A DNA stretch of 64,000 bases from a virus, in IMG/VR virus record IMGVR_UViG_3300045440_000165, positions 1 through 64,000 of that record. One strand, written 5' to 3'. A program made the position numbers and the translations under genes. Positions 1-47,694 of the stretch are shown here, piece after piece. Within the stretch, counting starts at the first letter, position 1, and every line of letters begins with the position of its first letter. The notes below the pieces were generated by a model. It worked only from the letters and a program-made list of their open reading frames with translations. It was not told the DNA's origin and ran no database searches.

Positions 1-226
1 CACCATCGATTGATGGGGCAACCTGCCCTTTATTATTCATTACTAGATACACCACTGGCATTGGCCTAGTCGCGGCCTCAATCGGTTGCCACGTTGTCGC
101 ATCCTTCTTCCCTTGCTCGTATGCTTCTGTAACTGCGGTTAAATAATCGCCATTTGCTACAAAACCACCTCGATCATTTGCTTGCACCAAACCTGTCCAT
201 TGTTGCGGAATCGTTAGCTTTGTCAT
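1..226 (-). CDS. hypothetical phage protein, runs off the window edge
   Basis: ATG at 226 abuts the upstream gene's stop at 227; open frame MTKLTIPQQW...TWQPIEAATRP to the edge; WQPIE motif is common in small phage proteins. Confidence 0.6.
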   Translation of the reverse strand, partial: MTKLTIPQQWTGLVQANDRGGFVANGDYLTAVTEAYEQGKKDATTWQPIEAATRPMPVVYLVMNNKGQVAPSIDG

Positions 227-1453
227 TTATAACCCCATAAAATCAAACGTACCAAACTCTTGATGTAACCCTACTTTAATAATCTCAACAGTATTAGCAT
301 CATACCCTACTTTTGCTACAGCTTCATATACTTTATCAGCATGTTCCCCATCCCATTGCATCGCTACAGATATATACTCAGATAGATCCGTCTTATTCGC
401 TAAAAAATCATGCGCTGAAGCTTCTACAAATTTTGCATCACTTGCTAATTTAATAAATTCGTTATAGATAGTACCTCTAGTTGCGCCATTATCTATCTGG
501 TCTGCCCACCAATGCAATCCACTCTCATCACCTTCACGATTAAACACTGACTTGTAAACAATTTTCATAAATTCATAATTTGATGTGTTTCCATACCAAT
601 GCTGGCCTTCTACAGAGTTAATTAGGGAATCAGAAATTGCAACTTTGTCTCCTCCACTCTCAACTTGCTTAGCCCACCATTGCAAACCACTAATCTCCGC
701 AGGGCGCTTTAAAATGCAAGCATATTGTTGTGCTACTAATTCTTTAGCTGATGTATATTCAAAATCCATCTTATTAAAACCTGTAGCCACTGTAGCTGAA
801 ATTAGATCAATACCATAAGGTTGATTTGCAGGATTAACACCGGGAATCTCCGAGAATGGAATCTTTCCATGACCATTAACACCCCAACCAGTCCATGAAT
901 TGAGCACGTTATAGCTCTGAGTAGACCAATCAACGCCAGTTATTACATATGCATGAGCACCCACCATCGGTGATCCAATACTGTTGCCATTTCCAAATTC
1001 ATTATGTACAAACGCTGTGATCACAACTGGCTTTCCTTGCGACAAATATTCTGTAATCTCTGTAGCAAATCCTGTAGATCCTTGATACATATTTAACCAT
1101 TTATACCCACTAACTTTCTGAGTTGCTGCAAGGTAGTGCACCGATTCGCTTGGCTTGACAAACAGGTTGTGAGAGCCGTAATTAAATGCAGATTCAGGGG
1201 CGATTCCTGTTGTTTTGGCTACGCTCCAAGCAACATCTATATTTGAACCGCCGTCACTTGTGAATTTATTCATCAATATGCGCGTATCATTATAACCTTG
1301 TTGCCGTGATAAATTTTCAACTGGATTGCTCGCAATTTTCGACATCATTTCAAGTACGGAAGGGATGGCATTCCAAACACAAGAATTTTGCCCCCCTTGA
1401 TCATGTGCTTTTGGCATAAGCCAAGATAAATCTACTTTAGTTAGTTTGCTCAT
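227..1453 (-). CDS. papain-like (C1 family) cysteine peptidase fused to a C-terminal DUF4214-like (S-layer-type) domain
   Basis: DQGGQNSCVWNA (Gln/Cys), GAHAYVITG (His), VLNSW (Asn); C-terminal YACILKRPAEISGLQWW and VYKSVFNREGDESGLHWW repeats. Confidence 0.8.
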   Translation of the reverse strand: MSKLTKVDLSWLMPKAHDQGGQNSCVWNAIPSVLEMMSKIASNPVENLSRQQGYNDTRILMNKFTSDGGSNIDVAWSVAKTTGIAPESAFNYGSHNLFVKPSESVHYLAATQKVSGYKWLNMYQGSTGFATEITEYLSQGKPVVITAFVHNEFGNGNSIGSPMVGAHAYVITGVDWSTQSYNVLNSWTGWGVNGHGKIPFSEIPGVNPANQPYGIDLISATVATGFNKMDFEYTSAKELVAQQYACILKRPAEISGLQWWAKQVESGGDKVAISDSLINSVEGQHWYGNTSNYEFMKIVYKSVFNREGDESGLHWWADQIDNGATRGTIYNEFIKLASDAKFVEASAHDFLANKTDLSEYISVAMQWDGEHADKVYEAVAKVGYDANTVEIIKVGLHQEFGTFDFMGL

Positions 1454-1454
1454 G

Positions 1455-1883
1455 TTATTCCTCTTTTAGTTTTCCATAGTAACGATACCAATTAGGCTTC
1501 ATAGCAATCTTCTCAGAAATACGCTGCCGAATGATAGTAAGAGCTTCTTGTGTAGGGTTGTAATCCCCCAGAAACACTGAATTGCTCTCATACACTCCAT
1601 TAGGATCTAACTCAGACCACTCGTTAAAGTTTCTACCACGCTTACGCAACTCTTCTCTGAGATCATTAAACCTCTGGAAAAGATATGCACCTTTATTATA
1701 AAAGAAGCACACATGCCCAGTGTTAAGAGTGAATACTTTTGGTATTCTTGAAGATACTCCTACTACTCCATAAGCTGTAATCGATCTTGCTAAAGCTTTA
1801 GGCACCATTTTAATCTCACGAAACTCTGCGAATAAGTGTTGATCCATAAGCTCAGATGGTGGTACTAGGTTTATTCTGGTCAT
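1455..1883 (-). CDS. denV: pyrimidine-dimer DNA glycosylase / endonuclease V
   Basis: MTRINLVPPSELMDQHLFAEFREI, FTLNTGHVCFFYNKG and KPNWYRYYG closely follow T4 DenV. Confidence 0.95.
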   Translation of the reverse strand: MTRINLVPPSELMDQHLFAEFREIKMVPKALARSITAYGVVGVSSRIPKVFTLNTGHVCFFYNKGAYLFQRFNDLREELRKRGRNFNEWSELDPNGVYESNSVFLGDYNPTQEALTIIRQRISEKIAMKPNWYRYYGKLKEE

Positions 1884-1946: not shown

Positions 1947-2408
1947 TTAATACAACCATAAAGTAGCGTCTGAATCAGAAAATATCTCAATAAAATTCTC
2001 TAGCAATACATCCCTATCCCCGTTAGCTAGTCCACCACCAATTAACGGGAGATGAATATGCATATCTGGGGCTTTATATTTTTGATACCCTGCTAGATCC
2101 TTCATAGTCCCAAAAACGCTTGGGTAGTCTACGTATGTAACAGTAGGATCTCTTCCGTAGCCCAACTGAGTAATACAATTAGCAATTAGAATATTATTAT
2201 TCTCGTAATAGTAACTAACAATTTCACCTAAGTAAAGTCTTAGAAATCTATGCCGAGCCTTATAATACTCATATGCTTCTGGAAATAGCTCTTTTAGCTG
2301 CTTTGCAAACCCGCTTCCCATAACACCTTTAGCATTACAGCCATGAGCGATAATACAATCACTAGTGGCATGTGCAAATAAATCACCGCGTTTAATTTTC
2401 AAAGACAT
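1947..2408 (-). CDS. macrodomain protein (ADP-ribose hydrolase-like)
   Basis: GDLF, IIAHGCNAKGVMGSGFAK and LPLIGGGLANG macrodomain motifs. Confidence 0.88.
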   Translation of the reverse strand: MSLKIKRGDLFAHATSDCIIAHGCNAKGVMGSGFAKQLKELFPEAYEYYKARHRFLRLYLGEIVSYYYENNNILIANCITQLGYGRDPTVTYVDYPSVFGTMKDLAGYQKYKAPDMHIHLPLIGGGLANGDRDVLLENFIEIFSDSDATLWLY

Positions 2409-4785: not shown

Positions 4786-5310
4786 CTAATCTGTGTATAA
4801 CCAATATGATAGAAAATTAACTACGAAATCCACAGATACACATATTTCCCCTTTATTTTGTAAATCATTCCTATCTTCAATAAACATTTCTTTTGTTGGA
4901 TTTTTTAAAATTAAAGTAGACATATCTGAAATTATTTTTGGTAACGGTTTATTTGTCTTTACTTGAAAAACTTGTACACCACCTTTCAGTATAAACATTA
5001 AGTGGTATGTATCCTGCGGCGTATCCTGCGGCGTATCCTGCGGCGTATCCTGCGGCGTATCCTGCGGCGTATCCTCCAGAATATCCTCTTGATATTCCAC
5101 TTCTTTAATCATAGCTTTAAATGCAGCTATCGTACTTCTTACGCCATGCATGAAAATATCTCTTGCTGTGCTTCCATTTCCCCCTCCATACTCCACTGCT
5201 GAACAACATTGTATCTCAGCTTCTTTTAAATATTCTTTATTATCTTCGATAGTTATGTTATCTAAAGCGGATATTAGCGCATCGTAGCTTGTGTATTTTC
5301 CAGTATTCAT
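4786..5310 (-). CDS. hypothetical protein with (DTPQ)5 linker
   Basis: ORF track; AAAGGAG RBS. Confidence 0.75.
   Translation of the reverse strand: MNTGKYTSYDALISALDNITIEDNKEYLKEAEIQCCSAVEYGGGNGSTARDIFMHGVRSTIAAFKAMIKEVEYQEDILEDTPQDTPQDTPQDTPQDTPQDTYHLMFILKGGVQVFQVKTNKPLPKIISDMSTLILKNPTKEMFIEDRNDLQNKGEICVSVDFVVNFLSYWLYTD
5009..5075. repeat. perfect 12-bp tandem repeat GTATCCTGCGGC, five full copies plus a partial
   Basis: units start at 5009, 5021, 5033, 5045 and 5057. Confidence 0.95.
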
Positions 5311-6396: not shown

Positions 6397-6661
6397 GTAA
6401 ATGATAAAAATAAATCTGTTATTTTAAAACATGCCCACTATGATTTCAAATCTGAAAATGGCTAGAAAGTCTCCCATTTTTTTACCTTCCTTCTTAAGGG
6501 ATTTTTCCCCATTCCTAACAAAAAGATAACAATTGCTTAAATCATAATATGTCAAAAAGATAATATTAGCTATTCTGCAATATTTATTTATTGCAATAAT
6601 AAAGAAATAACAACAAATTATATTACTTACATTGTGTTTATATAAATATCCTCTGATAAGC

Positions 6662-13780: not shown

Positions 13781-14500
13781 CTACCACCTTGTGGTAATAT
13801 TCGCCACAGTCTTAGCATACCATTTCCCTCCCCGTTGAGTTTTATTACCATGTAAATTTAACTCTTCAGCTATAGCATGAAAGCTCATCCCATCTTTACG
13901 CATACGAGAGATTGTAGGTTTCATGAACAATGCAAAATTATCAGCTTCTTGCTTATTAGCAATTACACTTTGCTTGTTAGCTTTATGAGCATGAGCGGCT
14001 ACAGTTGGAAGAGACATTCCTAATGGCTCCCCTCTGGCTTTCTTAGCAGCGAAAGCAGCTTTAGTCCTCTCACCAATCTTCCTACGCTCCTCTTCTGCAA
14101 AGGAAGCTCTCAATTGAATTTCTAGAGGAGATACATCTATCCCGCATTCAGCTACGATAAATTTGGCAGAGCCATATTTGGTAGAAGAGTCCATGAGATT
14201 GAATATAAAGCTAGCTTTCCTAGACAGCCTATCAATCTTAGAAATTAGAATAGAAGCTCCTATCTTCTGAGCATCTTTGAAAGCTTGCTTTAGTATGGGC
14301 CTTCTATCAAGATCATATTTACCAGATACTATTTCTACCCTAGTATCAATTATCTCAATACCGTGGTAGCTTGCAAAGCGCTTCATATCTTCTATTTGAG
14401 CTTCCACCCCTAATCCTGATTTCCCTTGCTCTGTAGTGGAAACACGAGCATAGGCTATTACTTGCTTGCAAGCTATAGCTTGTTTAGATATTGATTTCAT
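13781..14500 (-). CDS. serine recombinase (resolvase/invertase family)
   Basis: AYARVSTTEQ catalytic Ser motif, RP.L, KIDRLSR, and C-terminal IAEELN...TQRGGKW. Confidence 0.93.
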   Translation of the reverse strand: MKSISKQAIACKQVIAYARVSTTEQGKSGLGVEAQIEDMKRFASYHGIEIIDTRVEIVSGKYDLDRRPILKQAFKDAQKIGASILISKIDRLSRKASFIFNLMDSSTKYGSAKFIVAECGIDVSPLEIQLRASFAEEERRKIGERTKAAFAAKKARGEPLGMSLPTVAAHAHKANKQSVIANKQEADNFALFMKPTISRMRKDGMSFHAIAEELNLHGNKTQRGGKWYAKTVANITTRW

Positions 14501-46180: not shown

Positions 46181-46681
46181 ATGCTGTATGCAGAATTACT
46201 AAGCCAACTATCTCTGGACGAATTAATAAAAAACGATATAGGAAACACTCAGATGGTTATTAACCTAACATTTCTTCAGTTATTAGCCATACTAGGCACA
46301 GGTGTAGTAGTAGCTGCAGGATTCATAACATGGCTAACAAAGCAAGTGGCTACAATAACACACAAATGGACAGTGTTCGAGACAGCATTCTCTGACATGA
46401 AAACTGACTTGGATAGCGTTAAAGATAGCAGGCAATCTAATGATGAGCTACTAAAGAAGATGGTGGAGCGTATTGTGGCACTAGAAAACCATGCAGAGAC
46501 AGCAGCATTGCGCCATGAGATTATGATTATCAAGAGTCAAATGGTGGGTTGGGATACTCTCACGCGTATAGAACGTACATTAGCTTTAATAGCATCGTCA
46601 GGTAATGGCAACCAAGCTATGGGTGCTGTATCAGATGTATTGAAAGCTGAAAGGGAAAGTAGGGAGGGGACACGTCAATGA
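46181..46681 (+). CDS. single-TM coiled-coil lysis-region protein (holin or inner spanin)
   Basis: one TM segment then coiled coil; ATGA-coupled to the endolysin. Confidence 0.5.
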   Translation: MLYAELLSQLSLDELIKNDIGNTQMVINLTFLQLLAILGTGVVVAAGFITWLTKQVATITHKWTVFETAFSDMKTDLDSVKDSRQSNDELLKKMVERIVALENHAETAALRHEIMIIKSQMVGWDTLTRIERTLALIASSGNGNQAMGAVSDVLKAERESREGTRQ

Positions 46682-47217
46682 TTGTTCAAAAGATTATAAA
46701 TGACATCATAGAAGTGGAAGGGGGGTATTCGGACAACCCTAATGACACTGGTGGGAAAACTAAGTATGGCATCACCGAAGCTGTAGCTAGAGCTAATGGG
46801 TGGGCAGGGGATATGAAAGACTTAACTAAAGAGTTTGCATATCAAGTGTATCTCAATCAATACTACAACATCCCTCAGTTTAACAAGGTAGCAGAGTTGT
46901 CAGAAGCTATAGCTGCAGAGTTAACAGATACAGCAGTTAATTGTGGTGTGCCTACAGCCTGCCCTATGCTGCAAGAAGCTCTCAATCTCTTGAATAGGCA
47001 AGATAAAGATTATACAGATGTATTGGTTGATGGGCATATCGGTAGTAACACTCTTGTGGCCCTAGCCAAGTACTTGCAGAGACGAGGCAGTGAAGGTGAG
47101 AAAGTGATGTTAAAAATGCTTAACATTATGCAAGGGAGTCATTATATCAAGATAACTAAATCTCGCCCTGCTAACGAACAATTCATCTACGGATGGATAG
47201 CTAATAGGATTGGATAA
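46678..47217 (+). CDS. GH108 endolysin with C-terminal peptidoglycan-binding domain
   Basis: EGGYSDNPNDTGGKTKYGIT, DTAVNCG, VDGHIG and FIYGWIANR. Confidence 0.93.
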   Translation: MIVQKIINDIIEVEGGYSDNPNDTGGKTKYGITEAVARANGWAGDMKDLTKEFAYQVYLNQYYNIPQFNKVAELSEAIAAELTDTAVNCGVPTACPMLQEALNLLNRQDKDYTDVLVDGHIGSNTLVALAKYLQRRGSEGEKVMLKMLNIMQGSHYIKITKSRPANEQFIYGWIANRIG

Positions 47218-47219
47218 TT

Positions 47220-47618
47220 ATGTTTGGTAAATTAAAAGCATTCTACGCTGTATTTCAAGCTGGTAAGTCTGTAGCAAATCCAGAAGCTTGGAAGCGTGGG
47301 CAAATAACAGCTACTATCCTAGCTGGTGTGTTTATTGCATTACTGCAGCTTGCAAAGGTGTTTGGGTATGATATTCCAATGGATGAGAATACAGCAACTA
47401 GCATTGCTGCTGGTGTTATTGCCCTTATTAACTGGCTGCTCACTGTTGCAACAACAAATAAAATTGGACTACCCTCTGGAGTGCAAGCAGAGCCACTTCC
47501 AACAATTGTGCCTGAGCTTACAGAAGGTTCAAAGCAATCAAGTGTGCAAGAGGTCAGCAAAGATGCTCAGGAGAGTAGGGCAGAACAATGGCTCAGAGAA
47601 CATACGACAATTGGCTAA
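47220..47618 (+). CDS. two-TM holin-like protein
   Basis: two hydrophobic helices and a hydrophilic tail; directly after the lysin. Confidence 0.65.
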   Translation: MFGKLKAFYAVFQAGKSVANPEAWKRGQITATILAGVFIALLQLAKVFGYDIPMDENTATSIAAGVIALINWLLTVATTNKIGLPSGVQAEPLPTIVPELTEGSKQSSVQEVSKDAQESRAEQWLREHTTIG

Positions 47619-47694
47619 CACAAATAAAGAAGCCGTCCAAGATTATATAGAATCTATAGACGGCTTAACAATATCTGTAACTTGCAATGTATAA
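47383..47694 (+). CDS. nested +1-frame lipoprotein (outer spanin-like)
   Basis: MRIQQLALLLVLLPLLTG-C lipobox within track ORF 47326..47694. Confidence 0.6.
   Translation: MRIQQLALLLVLLPLLTGCSLLQQQIKLDYPLECKQSHFQQLCLSLQKVQSNQVCKRSAKMLRRVGQNNGSENIRQLANTNKEAVQDYIESIDGLTISVTCNV

What the first reader, a model, noticed from the sequence alone, without database searches (positions are those of the whole stretch)
227..1453. Phage-encoded papain-like protease fused to an S-layer-type (DUF4214-like) domain
Seen: an intact C1 catalytic set (Q..C, H, N-S-W) followed by two Y..(I/V)(L/F).R.(A/G)(E/D)..GL.WW repeats and a helical tail (FLANKTDLS...VAKV). Established: DUF4214 occurs in proteobacterial surface and S-layer proteins and resembles the LPS-anchoring N-terminal domain of Caulobacter RsaA. 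Inference: the phage captured a surface-targeting module to position a protease on the host envelope. It might cut the S-layer or receptors (escape, or exclusion of competing phages). I see no Sec signal peptide, so it would have to act after lysis or use a host secretion route. I do not know this fusion from characterised phages.
Basis: partly seen in the sequence, partly recalled or inferred. Interest (0 to 1): 0.8.

Follow-up and report, generated by a model that had tools for sequence, protein, structure and literature searches.

The report
Phage papain-like protease with DUF4214 anchor
An uncultured freshwater phage encodes an apparently active papain-type protease fused to a helical module that bacteria attach to secreted and surface-bound enzymes; the fusion is real and belongs to a mostly phage-borne gene family that moves between unrelated phages, but what it cuts is unknown.

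Summary
Window 227-1453 (minus strand) is a real 408-aa gene.

- **Family:** at least 56 clusters at 50% identity share the whole architecture. The ESM Atlas cluster is 78% viral. No cultured phage carries it.
- **Mobility:** copies 73-76% identical sit in otherwise unrelated phage genomes, either at the end of early or recombination operons or between tail-fibre and lysis genes. It behaves as mobile cargo.

My best reading (about 0.4) is a protease made in the cytoplasm that is freed when the cell lyses. The DUF4214 module would then hold it on an envelope glycan, where it cuts surface proteins. I rate it a new variant of a known kind, of moderate interest.

The parts
227..1453 (-). Complete CDS of 408 aa plus stop codon (227-229): C1 peptidase, two DUF4214 repeats, helical cap
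   Evidence: ORF listed. AAGAGG ribosome-binding site and coordinates. Homologues of 73-79% identity. AF2 model with pLDDT 94 and pTM 0.92.
764..1453 (-). Papain-family (C1) peptidase domain, residues 1-230. No propeptide.
1379..1381 (-). Codon of the catalytic nucleophile Cys25. The oxyanion-hole Gln19 codon is at 1397-1399.
   Evidence: At least 90% conserved in 56 family members.
953..955 (-). Codon of the catalytic His167
   Evidence: Invariant in alignment A2. Coordinates.
893..901 (-). Asn185-Ser186-Trp187 (the papain N-S-W motif)
   Evidence: At least 90% conserved in A2. Coordinates.
629..751 (-). DUF4214 repeat 1, residues about 235-275 (Y244, R250, G256, W259-W260)
   Evidence: Second Pfam PF13946 stretch. 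Y244, R250 and G256 at least 90% conserved. Helices 235-248, 254-265 and 270-279.
440..628 (-). DUF4214 repeat 2, residues about 276-338 (Y300, R306, G312, W315-W316)
   Evidence: Best PF13946 stretch, 276-334. Y300, G305 and R306 at least 90% conserved.
230..439 (-). Helical cap or tail, residues 339-408 (conserved N353 in the NKT motif). The last 4 residues are disordered in the model.
   Evidence: Helices 345-364, 372-380 and 386-399 with pLDDT above 90. It co-occurs with DUF4214 pairs in giant bacterial proteins, e.g. P0015, whose best stretch matches query residues 216-395.
1455..1883 (-). Upstream gene in the same operon: T4 endonuclease V-like pyrimidine-dimer glycosylase. Its stop lies 1 nt before the protease start.
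   Evidence: Pfam Pyr_excise 1.6e-13 and PHROG 1183 3.3e-43.
1947..2408 (-). Next gene upstream: PHROG 335 'phosphatase' family protein of 153 aa
   Evidence: 7.6e-34. No Pfam hit.
2..226 (-). Downstream ORF. It starts directly after the protease stop and runs off the contig end. Function unknown.
   Evidence: No Pfam or PHROG hit. A near-identical contig in run X3 continues 445 nt beyond window position 1.

Best explanation
The gene encodes a soluble two-part enzyme: an active papain-family endopeptidase joined rigidly to a targeting module made of DUF4214 repeats.

The protein is made in the cytoplasm of a Gram-negative freshwater or estuarine host. It has no signal peptide, no inhibitory propeptide and no disulfides. 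It would therefore reach the envelope only when the phage's own holin, endolysin and spanin system opens the cell.

Once outside, the DUF4214 module would hold it on a surface polysaccharide, such as the LPS O-antigen or a similar glycan. This is the way related modules hold RsaA, Psh and many secreted enzymes on the cell surface. The protease would then cut surface or outer-membrane proteins (S-layer, receptors, adhesins) on debris and on neighbouring cells. That would free progeny phage or expose receptors. It would be a protein-directed counterpart of the soluble polysaccharide depolymerases that phages release.

**Shown:** the domain identities, the intact catalytic residues, the family-wide lack of export signals, the mostly viral distribution, and the movement of the gene between phages.

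**Inferred:** glycan binding, the time and place of action, and the substrate.

For: 2. The C-terminal module is DUF4214 (63 bits). Its predicted-structure neighbours are DUF4214 modules fused to exported or envelope-active enzymes: HemolysinCabind+CAP, serralysin M10, Amidase_2, Glucosaminidase, Peptidase_M23 and 5'-nucleotidase.

3. Another viral contig carries a GH113 glycosidase with two DUF4214 repeats (L003). A phage C1 peptidase fused to Cu_amine_oxidN1 (L025) and one annotated 'Peptidoglycan binding-like' show the same layout of a catalytic domain plus an envelope-binding domain.

5. A preprint reports that the RTX-DUF4214 protein Psh acts at the cell surface and proposes that it binds the O-antigen. 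DUF4214 proteins were also found in a Serratia secretome.

6. In relatives the gene sits in the late region. In L016 the order is TMP, tail, two tail-fibre genes, protease. In L017 it is tail fibres, protease, lipoprotein, endolysin. In L002 and L006 the gene converges on holin, endolysin or spanin-like genes.

7. The phage has its own lysis cassette: a GH108-type endolysin, Rz-like hits and an ORF with a lipobox. This points to a Gram-negative host and gives the protein a way out of the cell.

8. The gene is 73-76% identical between phages whose neighbouring genes are unrelated. That is typical of a self-contained accessory function under selection.
Against: - In this phage, and in L011, L015 and L006, the gene lies in or at the end of an early or recombination-type operon. 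It sits next to denV, or RecT/exonuclease/SSB, or Erf/primase, rather than among late genes. Minus-strand promoter-like sites near 6400 head that block.
- A propeptide-free C1 protease made early would be active in the cytoplasm.
- No glycan binding by any DUF4214 domain has been shown biochemically. The Psh O-antigen link rests on genetics and modelling in a preprint.
- The RsaA-like fold match is middling, from a weak model, and tied with PBS linkers, which bind proteins.
- RsaA_NTD (PF19198) does not match by sequence.
- The host is unknown, so nobody knows whether it has an S-layer.
Confidence: 0.4

Rival explanations
1. It is an intracellular host-takeover or counter-defence protease. The enzyme acts in the cytoplasm early in infection, and the DUF4214/PBS-linker-like module recognises a protein, or a cytoplasmic glycan intermediate, rather than the cell surface.
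For: - The family has no signal peptide, no propeptide and a median of two cysteines, so the protein folds and is active in the cytoplasm.
- In the window it is translationally coupled to a denV-like repair gene, in a block headed by early-type promoter-like sites.
- L011 and L015 place it after RecT, exonuclease and SSB.
- PBS-linker domains, which bind proteins, match the fold as well as RsaA does.
Against: - The bacterial fusion partners of DUF4214 are overwhelmingly exported or envelope enzymes.
- In L016 and L017 the gene is in the late operon, between tail-fibre and lysis genes.
- Canonical endolysins also lack signal peptides, so that feature does not discriminate.
Confidence: 0.2
2. 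It is an auxiliary lysis enzyme. The protease would cut peptidoglycan stem peptides, or the protein tethers between outer membrane and cell wall (Lpp/OmpA-like), during lysis, with DUF4214 acting as the cell-wall-binding domain, as in a modular endolysin.
For: - It has an architecture of enzymatic domain plus binding domain and no signal peptide.
- It lies next to holin or endolysin genes in L002 and L017.
- In Actinomycetota, DUF4214 is fused to Amidase_2, Glucosaminidase and M23 wall hydrolases.
Against: - Every phage context already has an endolysin, and this phage has spanin-like genes as well.
- In four contexts the gene is not in the lysis cassette.
Confidence: 0.15
3. It is a virion-borne enzyme. 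The protein would ride on the tail or fibres and clear a proteinaceous surface layer during adsorption.
For: - In L016 and L017 the gene directly follows two tail-fibre genes on the same strand.
Against: - There is no N-terminal adaptor or trimerisation domain. The protein begins at the first strand of the protease fold.
- In the window, L006, L011 and L015 it is far from structural genes.
- The slot between tail fibres and lysis genes is a common cargo site.
Confidence: 0.1

Closest known systems
Xylellain (Xylella fastidiosa C1A cysteine protease, PDB 3OIS) and Legionella Lpg2622 (6A0N)
   Different: Xylellain has an N-terminal pro-region (chain residues before 55) that the phage protein lacks. 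Neither protein has a DUF4214 module, and both are bacterial.
Cwp84 of Clostridioides difficile (C1 protease that matures the S-layer protein; PDB 4CI7)
   Different: Cwp84 is secreted with a signal peptide and a propeptide, and is anchored by cell-wall-binding repeats rather than DUF4214. It is a Gram-positive host protein, not a phage protein.
RsaA N-terminal domain (Caulobacter S-layer anchor bound to LPS O-antigen; PDB 6T72/7PEO; Pfam PF19198)
Psh of Pseudomonas putida (RTX + DUF4214, T1SS-secreted, proposed O-antigen binder that blocks phages; bioRxiv 10.64898/2026.09.02.748959)
   Same: It carries the same Pfam domain (DUF4214), and the preprint assigns that domain a role at the LPS surface.
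   Different: Psh is a bacterial defence protein with RTX repeats and a dedicated exporter. The phage protein has a protease instead and no export route. O-antigen binding by Psh is inferred from genetics and modelling.
Phycobilisome linker domain (Pfam PF00427; PDB 3OHW, 3OSJ, 3PRU, 2KY4)
   Different: There is no Pfam PF00427 hit. PBS linkers bind phycobiliproteins in cyanobacteria, and nothing here points to a cyanobacterial host.
Modular phage endolysins and soluble depolymerases; baculovirus V-CATH (viral C1 cathepsin)
   Same: All share the logic of a catalytic domain plus a cell-binding domain, made without a signal peptide and released at lysis. V-CATH is a virus-encoded C1 protease that breaks down host barriers late in infection (my own knowledge).
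   Different: The catalytic domain here is a protein endopeptidase rather than a muralytic or glycan-cleaving enzyme, and the binding module is DUF4214. V-CATH is made as a proenzyme in an animal virus.

Membership tests
Peptidase family C1 (papain; Pfam PF00112) | Match to the family HMM or profile | tested here: met
   The window protein alone gets no PF00112 hit at E<1. However, 46 of 56 full-length relatives hit PF00112, best 9.5e-24. The family profile hits solved C1 enzymes at 7e-37 to 1e-13.
Peptidase family C1 (papain; Pfam PF00112) | Catalytic Gln-Cys-His-Asn set in papain order | tested here: met
   Q19, C25, H167 and N185 (plus S186, W187) are present. H167 is invariant and the others are at least 90% conserved in 56 sequences.
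Peptidase family C1 (papain; Pfam PF00112) | Papain two-lobe fold | tested here: met
Peptidase family C1 (papain; Pfam PF00112) | Proteolytic activity sensitive to E-64 | not testable with these tools
   Needs the purified protein.
DUF4214 (Pfam PF13946) | HMM match above the gathering score | tested here: met
   63 bits against a cut-off of 23.2, in two stretches. 66 bits on residues 226-408 alone. 55 of 56 relatives also hit.
RsaA_NTD (Pfam PF19198; LPS-binding S-layer anchor) | HMM match | tested here: not met
   A six-frame search of the whole 75.7-kb phage record found no match at E<=10, while the Caulobacter control scored above the cut-off. No PF19198 hit at E<=10 on the C-terminal fragments either.
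RsaA_NTD (Pfam PF19198; LPS-binding S-layer anchor) | Same three-dimensional fold | tested here: inconclusive
RsaA_NTD (Pfam PF19198; LPS-binding S-layer anchor) | Ca2+-dependent binding of O-antigen | not testable with these tools
   Needs a binding assay with host LPS.
Phycobilisome linker domain (Pfam PF00427) | HMM match and fold | tested here: inconclusive
Type I secretion (RTX) substrate, as RsaA and Psh are | RTX/HemolysinCabind repeats before a C-terminal signal | tested here: not met
   No HemolysinCabind hit in this protein or in any of the 56 relatives.
Phage endolysin (catalytic domain plus wall-binding domain in the lysis cassette) | Muralytic catalytic domain and a place in the lysis cassette | tested here: inconclusive
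   The catalytic domain is C1A-like, and no CHAP, NlpC/P60, amidase or glycosidase is listed among the top matches. The gene adjoins lysis genes in L002 and L017 but not in the window, L011 or L015.

The most novel reading that the evidence does not exclude
Tailed phages of aquatic Gram-negative bacteria trade a self-contained 'surface sheddase': a propeptide-free papain-type protease that an RsaA-NTD-like DUF4214 module parks on the LPS O-antigen. After lysis it would strip S-layer, adhesin or receptor proteins from debris and neighbouring cells. That would make it the first protein-cleaving counterpart of phage polysaccharide depolymerases and receptor-destroying enzymes. It would also be the first assigned function, glycan anchoring, for DUF4214 in a virus.
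Probability: 0.3. Interest if true: 0.75.

Novelty: new variant of a known kind. Interest (0 to 1): 0.55.

Why it matters
Phages are known to carry enzymes that cut cell walls and polysaccharide coats. Proteases aimed at the protein part of the bacterial surface are essentially undescribed.

This family is intact, widespread in uncultured aquatic phages and exchanged between unrelated phage genomes, so it is probably useful to them.

- **If the DUF4214 module binds surface glycans:** the family would give a function to a very common domain of unknown function. This profile found more than 33,000 matching cluster representatives. It would also supply ready-made reagents: a surface-binding tag and a surface-protein-stripping enzyme.
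- **If the protease acts inside the cell instead:** it would be a new kind of host-takeover protease.

Either outcome can be tested with a single recombinant protein.

Tried and rejected
- **Alignment too diverse.** A2 was too diverse for the search for related loci.
- **Single-protein scans.** Scans of IMG/VR with P0083, P0013 and P0017 found nothing.
- **Genome relatives.** The genome search 'relatives' is not available for a virus record.
- **First structure prediction.** An alignment of 8 sequences gave a poor model with pLDDT 43.9. I used that model only because its sole confident part is the DUF4214 region.
- **C-terminal module alone.** Searches with the good model list only protease matches, which says nothing about the C-terminal fold.
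- **Sequence searches of residues 226-408.** phmmer against PDB sequences gave nothing meaningful. A word-based search for short stand-alone homologues gave none.
- **T1SS export.** Considered and set aside, because there are no RTX repeats.
- **Spanin substitute.** Considered and set aside, because the phage has Rz-like hits and an ORF with a lipobox.
- **Recent capture from a host.** Not supported: the best bacterial DUF4214 units are 30-36% identical.
- **Read laying.** The one RNA-library contig (X11) covers only 1465-1634, inside the denV-like gene, and may be DNA carry-over. It shows nothing about transcription of the protease. Parts of the stretch without cover in X4 and X6 carry no meaning.

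Full report
**What is there**

Window 227-1453 on the minus strand is a 408-aa ORF. An AAGAGG ribosome-binding site precedes it, and its start codon lies 1 nt after the stop of the upstream gene. That upstream gene encodes a T4 endonuclease V-like glycosylase (Pfam Pyr_excise 1.6e-13, PHROG 1183). The next gene upstream belongs to a PHROG 335 'phosphatase' family. A further ORF starts right after the protease stop and runs off the contig.

The window is bases 1-64000 of a 75.7-kb IMG/VR virus record with a CheckV completeness of 88%. The record encodes terminase, portal, major capsid protein, a 2173-aa tape-measure protein, a DNA polymerase and a GH108-type endolysin. This is a siphovirus-like tailed phage.

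**The protease domain**

This protein alone does not reach Pfam Peptidase_C1 at E<1. It gets only a weak C39_2 hit and PHROG 16701 'peptidase' at 3.7e-11. The family settles the assignment:
- Close homologues at 73-79% identity carry PF00112 plus PF13946.
- Of 56 full-length representatives collected from an exhaustive profile search, 46 hit Peptidase_C1 and 55 hit DUF4214.
- The family profile matches solved C1 proteases. Xylellain 3OIS scores 7e-37, and cathepsins, ficins and Lpg2622 score 1e-13 to 1e-18.
- Gln19, Cys25, Asn185, Ser186 and Trp187 are at least 90% conserved, and His167 is invariant.

The alignment starts at xylellain residue 55, so the phage protein has no pro-region. It has two cysteines in total, one of them the nucleophile. 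No family member has a hydrophobic N-terminal signal, and the family median is two cysteines. The enzyme is therefore built to fold, and probably to be active, in the cytoplasm.

**The C-terminal module**

Residues 231-408 contain two DUF4214 repeats. They score 63-66 bits against a cut-off of 23.2. Tyr, Arg and Gly are conserved in each repeat (Y244/R250/G256 and Y300/G305/R306). A three-helix cap follows, with a conserved Asn353.

The same unit, two repeats plus the tail, recurs 7-10 times in giant bacterial proteins of Oxalobacteraceae and other taxa. Identity there is only 30-36% per unit, so a recent capture from a host is not shown.

Instead I used the first, shallow model, in which only residues about 234-342 are confident.
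- Foldseek itself lists 3osj_C with prob 1.0.
- No other fold class matched this region.

The company the domain keeps is independent of that question. Predicted-structure neighbours of residues 226-408 are DUF4214 modules fused to HemolysinCabind+CAP, serralysin, Amidase_2, Glucosaminidase, Peptidase_M23 and 5'-nucleotidase. A 176-kb viral contig carries a GH113 glycosidase with two DUF4214 repeats (L003). A preprint puts the RTX-DUF4214 protein Psh on the P. putida surface and proposes O-antigen binding. DUF4214 proteins also appear in a Serratia secretome.

**Distribution and mobility**

- No cultured phage in INPHARED has the fusion. The only hit is 29% identity to the protease half, in a 595-kb uncultured phage.
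- BFVD has phage C1 peptidases and phage DUF4214 proteins separately, but no full-length match.
- The architecture is nevertheless common in metagenomes. About 57 of the best 150 cluster representatives are 380-460 aa and align from end to end.
- The ESM Atlas cluster has 139 members, 78% of them labelled viral.
- Full-length members occur in IMG/VR contigs with GC from 38% to 59%.

The genomic position varies:
- **Window:** after denV, in a minus-strand block headed by promoter-like sites near 6400. If the genome is circular, this block continues into the replication genes.
- **L011 and L015:** after RecT, exonuclease and SSB, with an integrase nearby in L015.
- **L006:** at the end of an Erf/primase block, facing spanin-like genes.
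- **L002:** facing holin and endolysin.
- **L016:** directly after the tape-measure, tail and two tail-fibre genes.
- **L017:** between tail fibres and a lipoprotein-endolysin pair.

The protease is 73-76% identical between the window phage and L002, L006, L009 and L011. The flanking 10 kb shares nothing, or only 27-41% identity in the tail and lysis proteins. The gene moves between phages as a unit.

**Host and habitat**

The closest capsid proteins belong to Limnohabitans phage DC31 (53%) and a Curvibacter phage (48%). The lysis region has Rz-like hits and an ORF with an LLTGC lipobox. A Gram-negative host is likely. Near-identical DNA occurs in freshwater metagenomes and in one run labelled marine, from other studies.

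**Interpretation**

The safest statement is that this is a modular, probably active C1 endopeptidase carrying a DUF4214 targeting module, and that it is a mobile accessory gene of aquatic tailed phages.

The most likely mechanism (about 0.4) is release at lysis, anchoring to an envelope glycan, and cleavage of surface proteins. The rivals are:
- an intracellular takeover protease (0.2), favoured by the early-operon contexts;
- an auxiliary lysis enzyme (0.15);
- a virion-borne enzyme (0.1).

None of the four readings can be decided by sequence analysis alone. The envelope-targeting story remains a reasonable but untested inference.

Noticed in passing
window 46181-47694: Lysis region. A 166-aa protein with one TM segment has a weak Rz-like spanin hit (46181-46681). 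A GH108-type endolysin follows (46678-47217), then a 132-aa two-TM protein (47220-47618). An overlapping ORF (47326-47694) contains a lipoprotein signal ending in LLTGC and has a weak Rz-like hit. This suggests a Gram-negative host.
   Followed up: partly
L003:8633-10453 (IMGVR_UViG_3300025435_001056, 176.6 kb): A 606-aa protein in a large viral contig combines a GH113 glycoside hydrolase domain with two C-terminal DUF4214 repeats (110 bits). It is a second example of a phage enzyme carrying this module.
   Followed up: partly
L025:9797-10873: A viral-contig C1 peptidase fused to a Cu_amine_oxidN1 domain. BFVD also lists a phage C1 peptidase annotated 'Peptidoglycan binding-like' (A0A6J5MXS7). 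Phage C1 proteases seem to pair repeatedly with envelope-binding domains.
   Followed up: no
L011 (VFKX01000059.1, binned as Candidatus Falkowbacteria): This 8.9-kb contig of a CPR MAG carries RecT, exonuclease and SSB genes of phage type, plus a 75%-identical copy of the protease. It is probably a phage or prophage fragment, and possibly mis-binned.
   Followed up: partly
window 1-230 and beyond the contig start: A near-identical contig in run X3, from a different study, extends 445 nt past window position 1. The contig end is therefore not a genome end, and the ORF at 2-226 continues.
   Followed up: no
window 1465-1634: A 170-nt contig from an estuary metatranscriptome library is identical to part of the denV-like gene just upstream of the protease. 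It may reflect transcription or DNA carry-over.
   Followed up: no
window 4786-5310: A 174-aa protein with five tandem QDTP repeats in its middle. Function unknown.
   Followed up: no
P0055 (1181 aa, metagenomic): A protein with three tandem C1 peptidase domains separated by zinc-ribbon-like CxxC pairs. It turned up among the profile hits and is unrelated to the DUF4214 fusion.
   Followed up: no
window 13781-14500: A serine recombinase or invertase-type gene (PHROG 95 and 125). The phage may be temperate or may carry an invertible segment.
   Followed up: no
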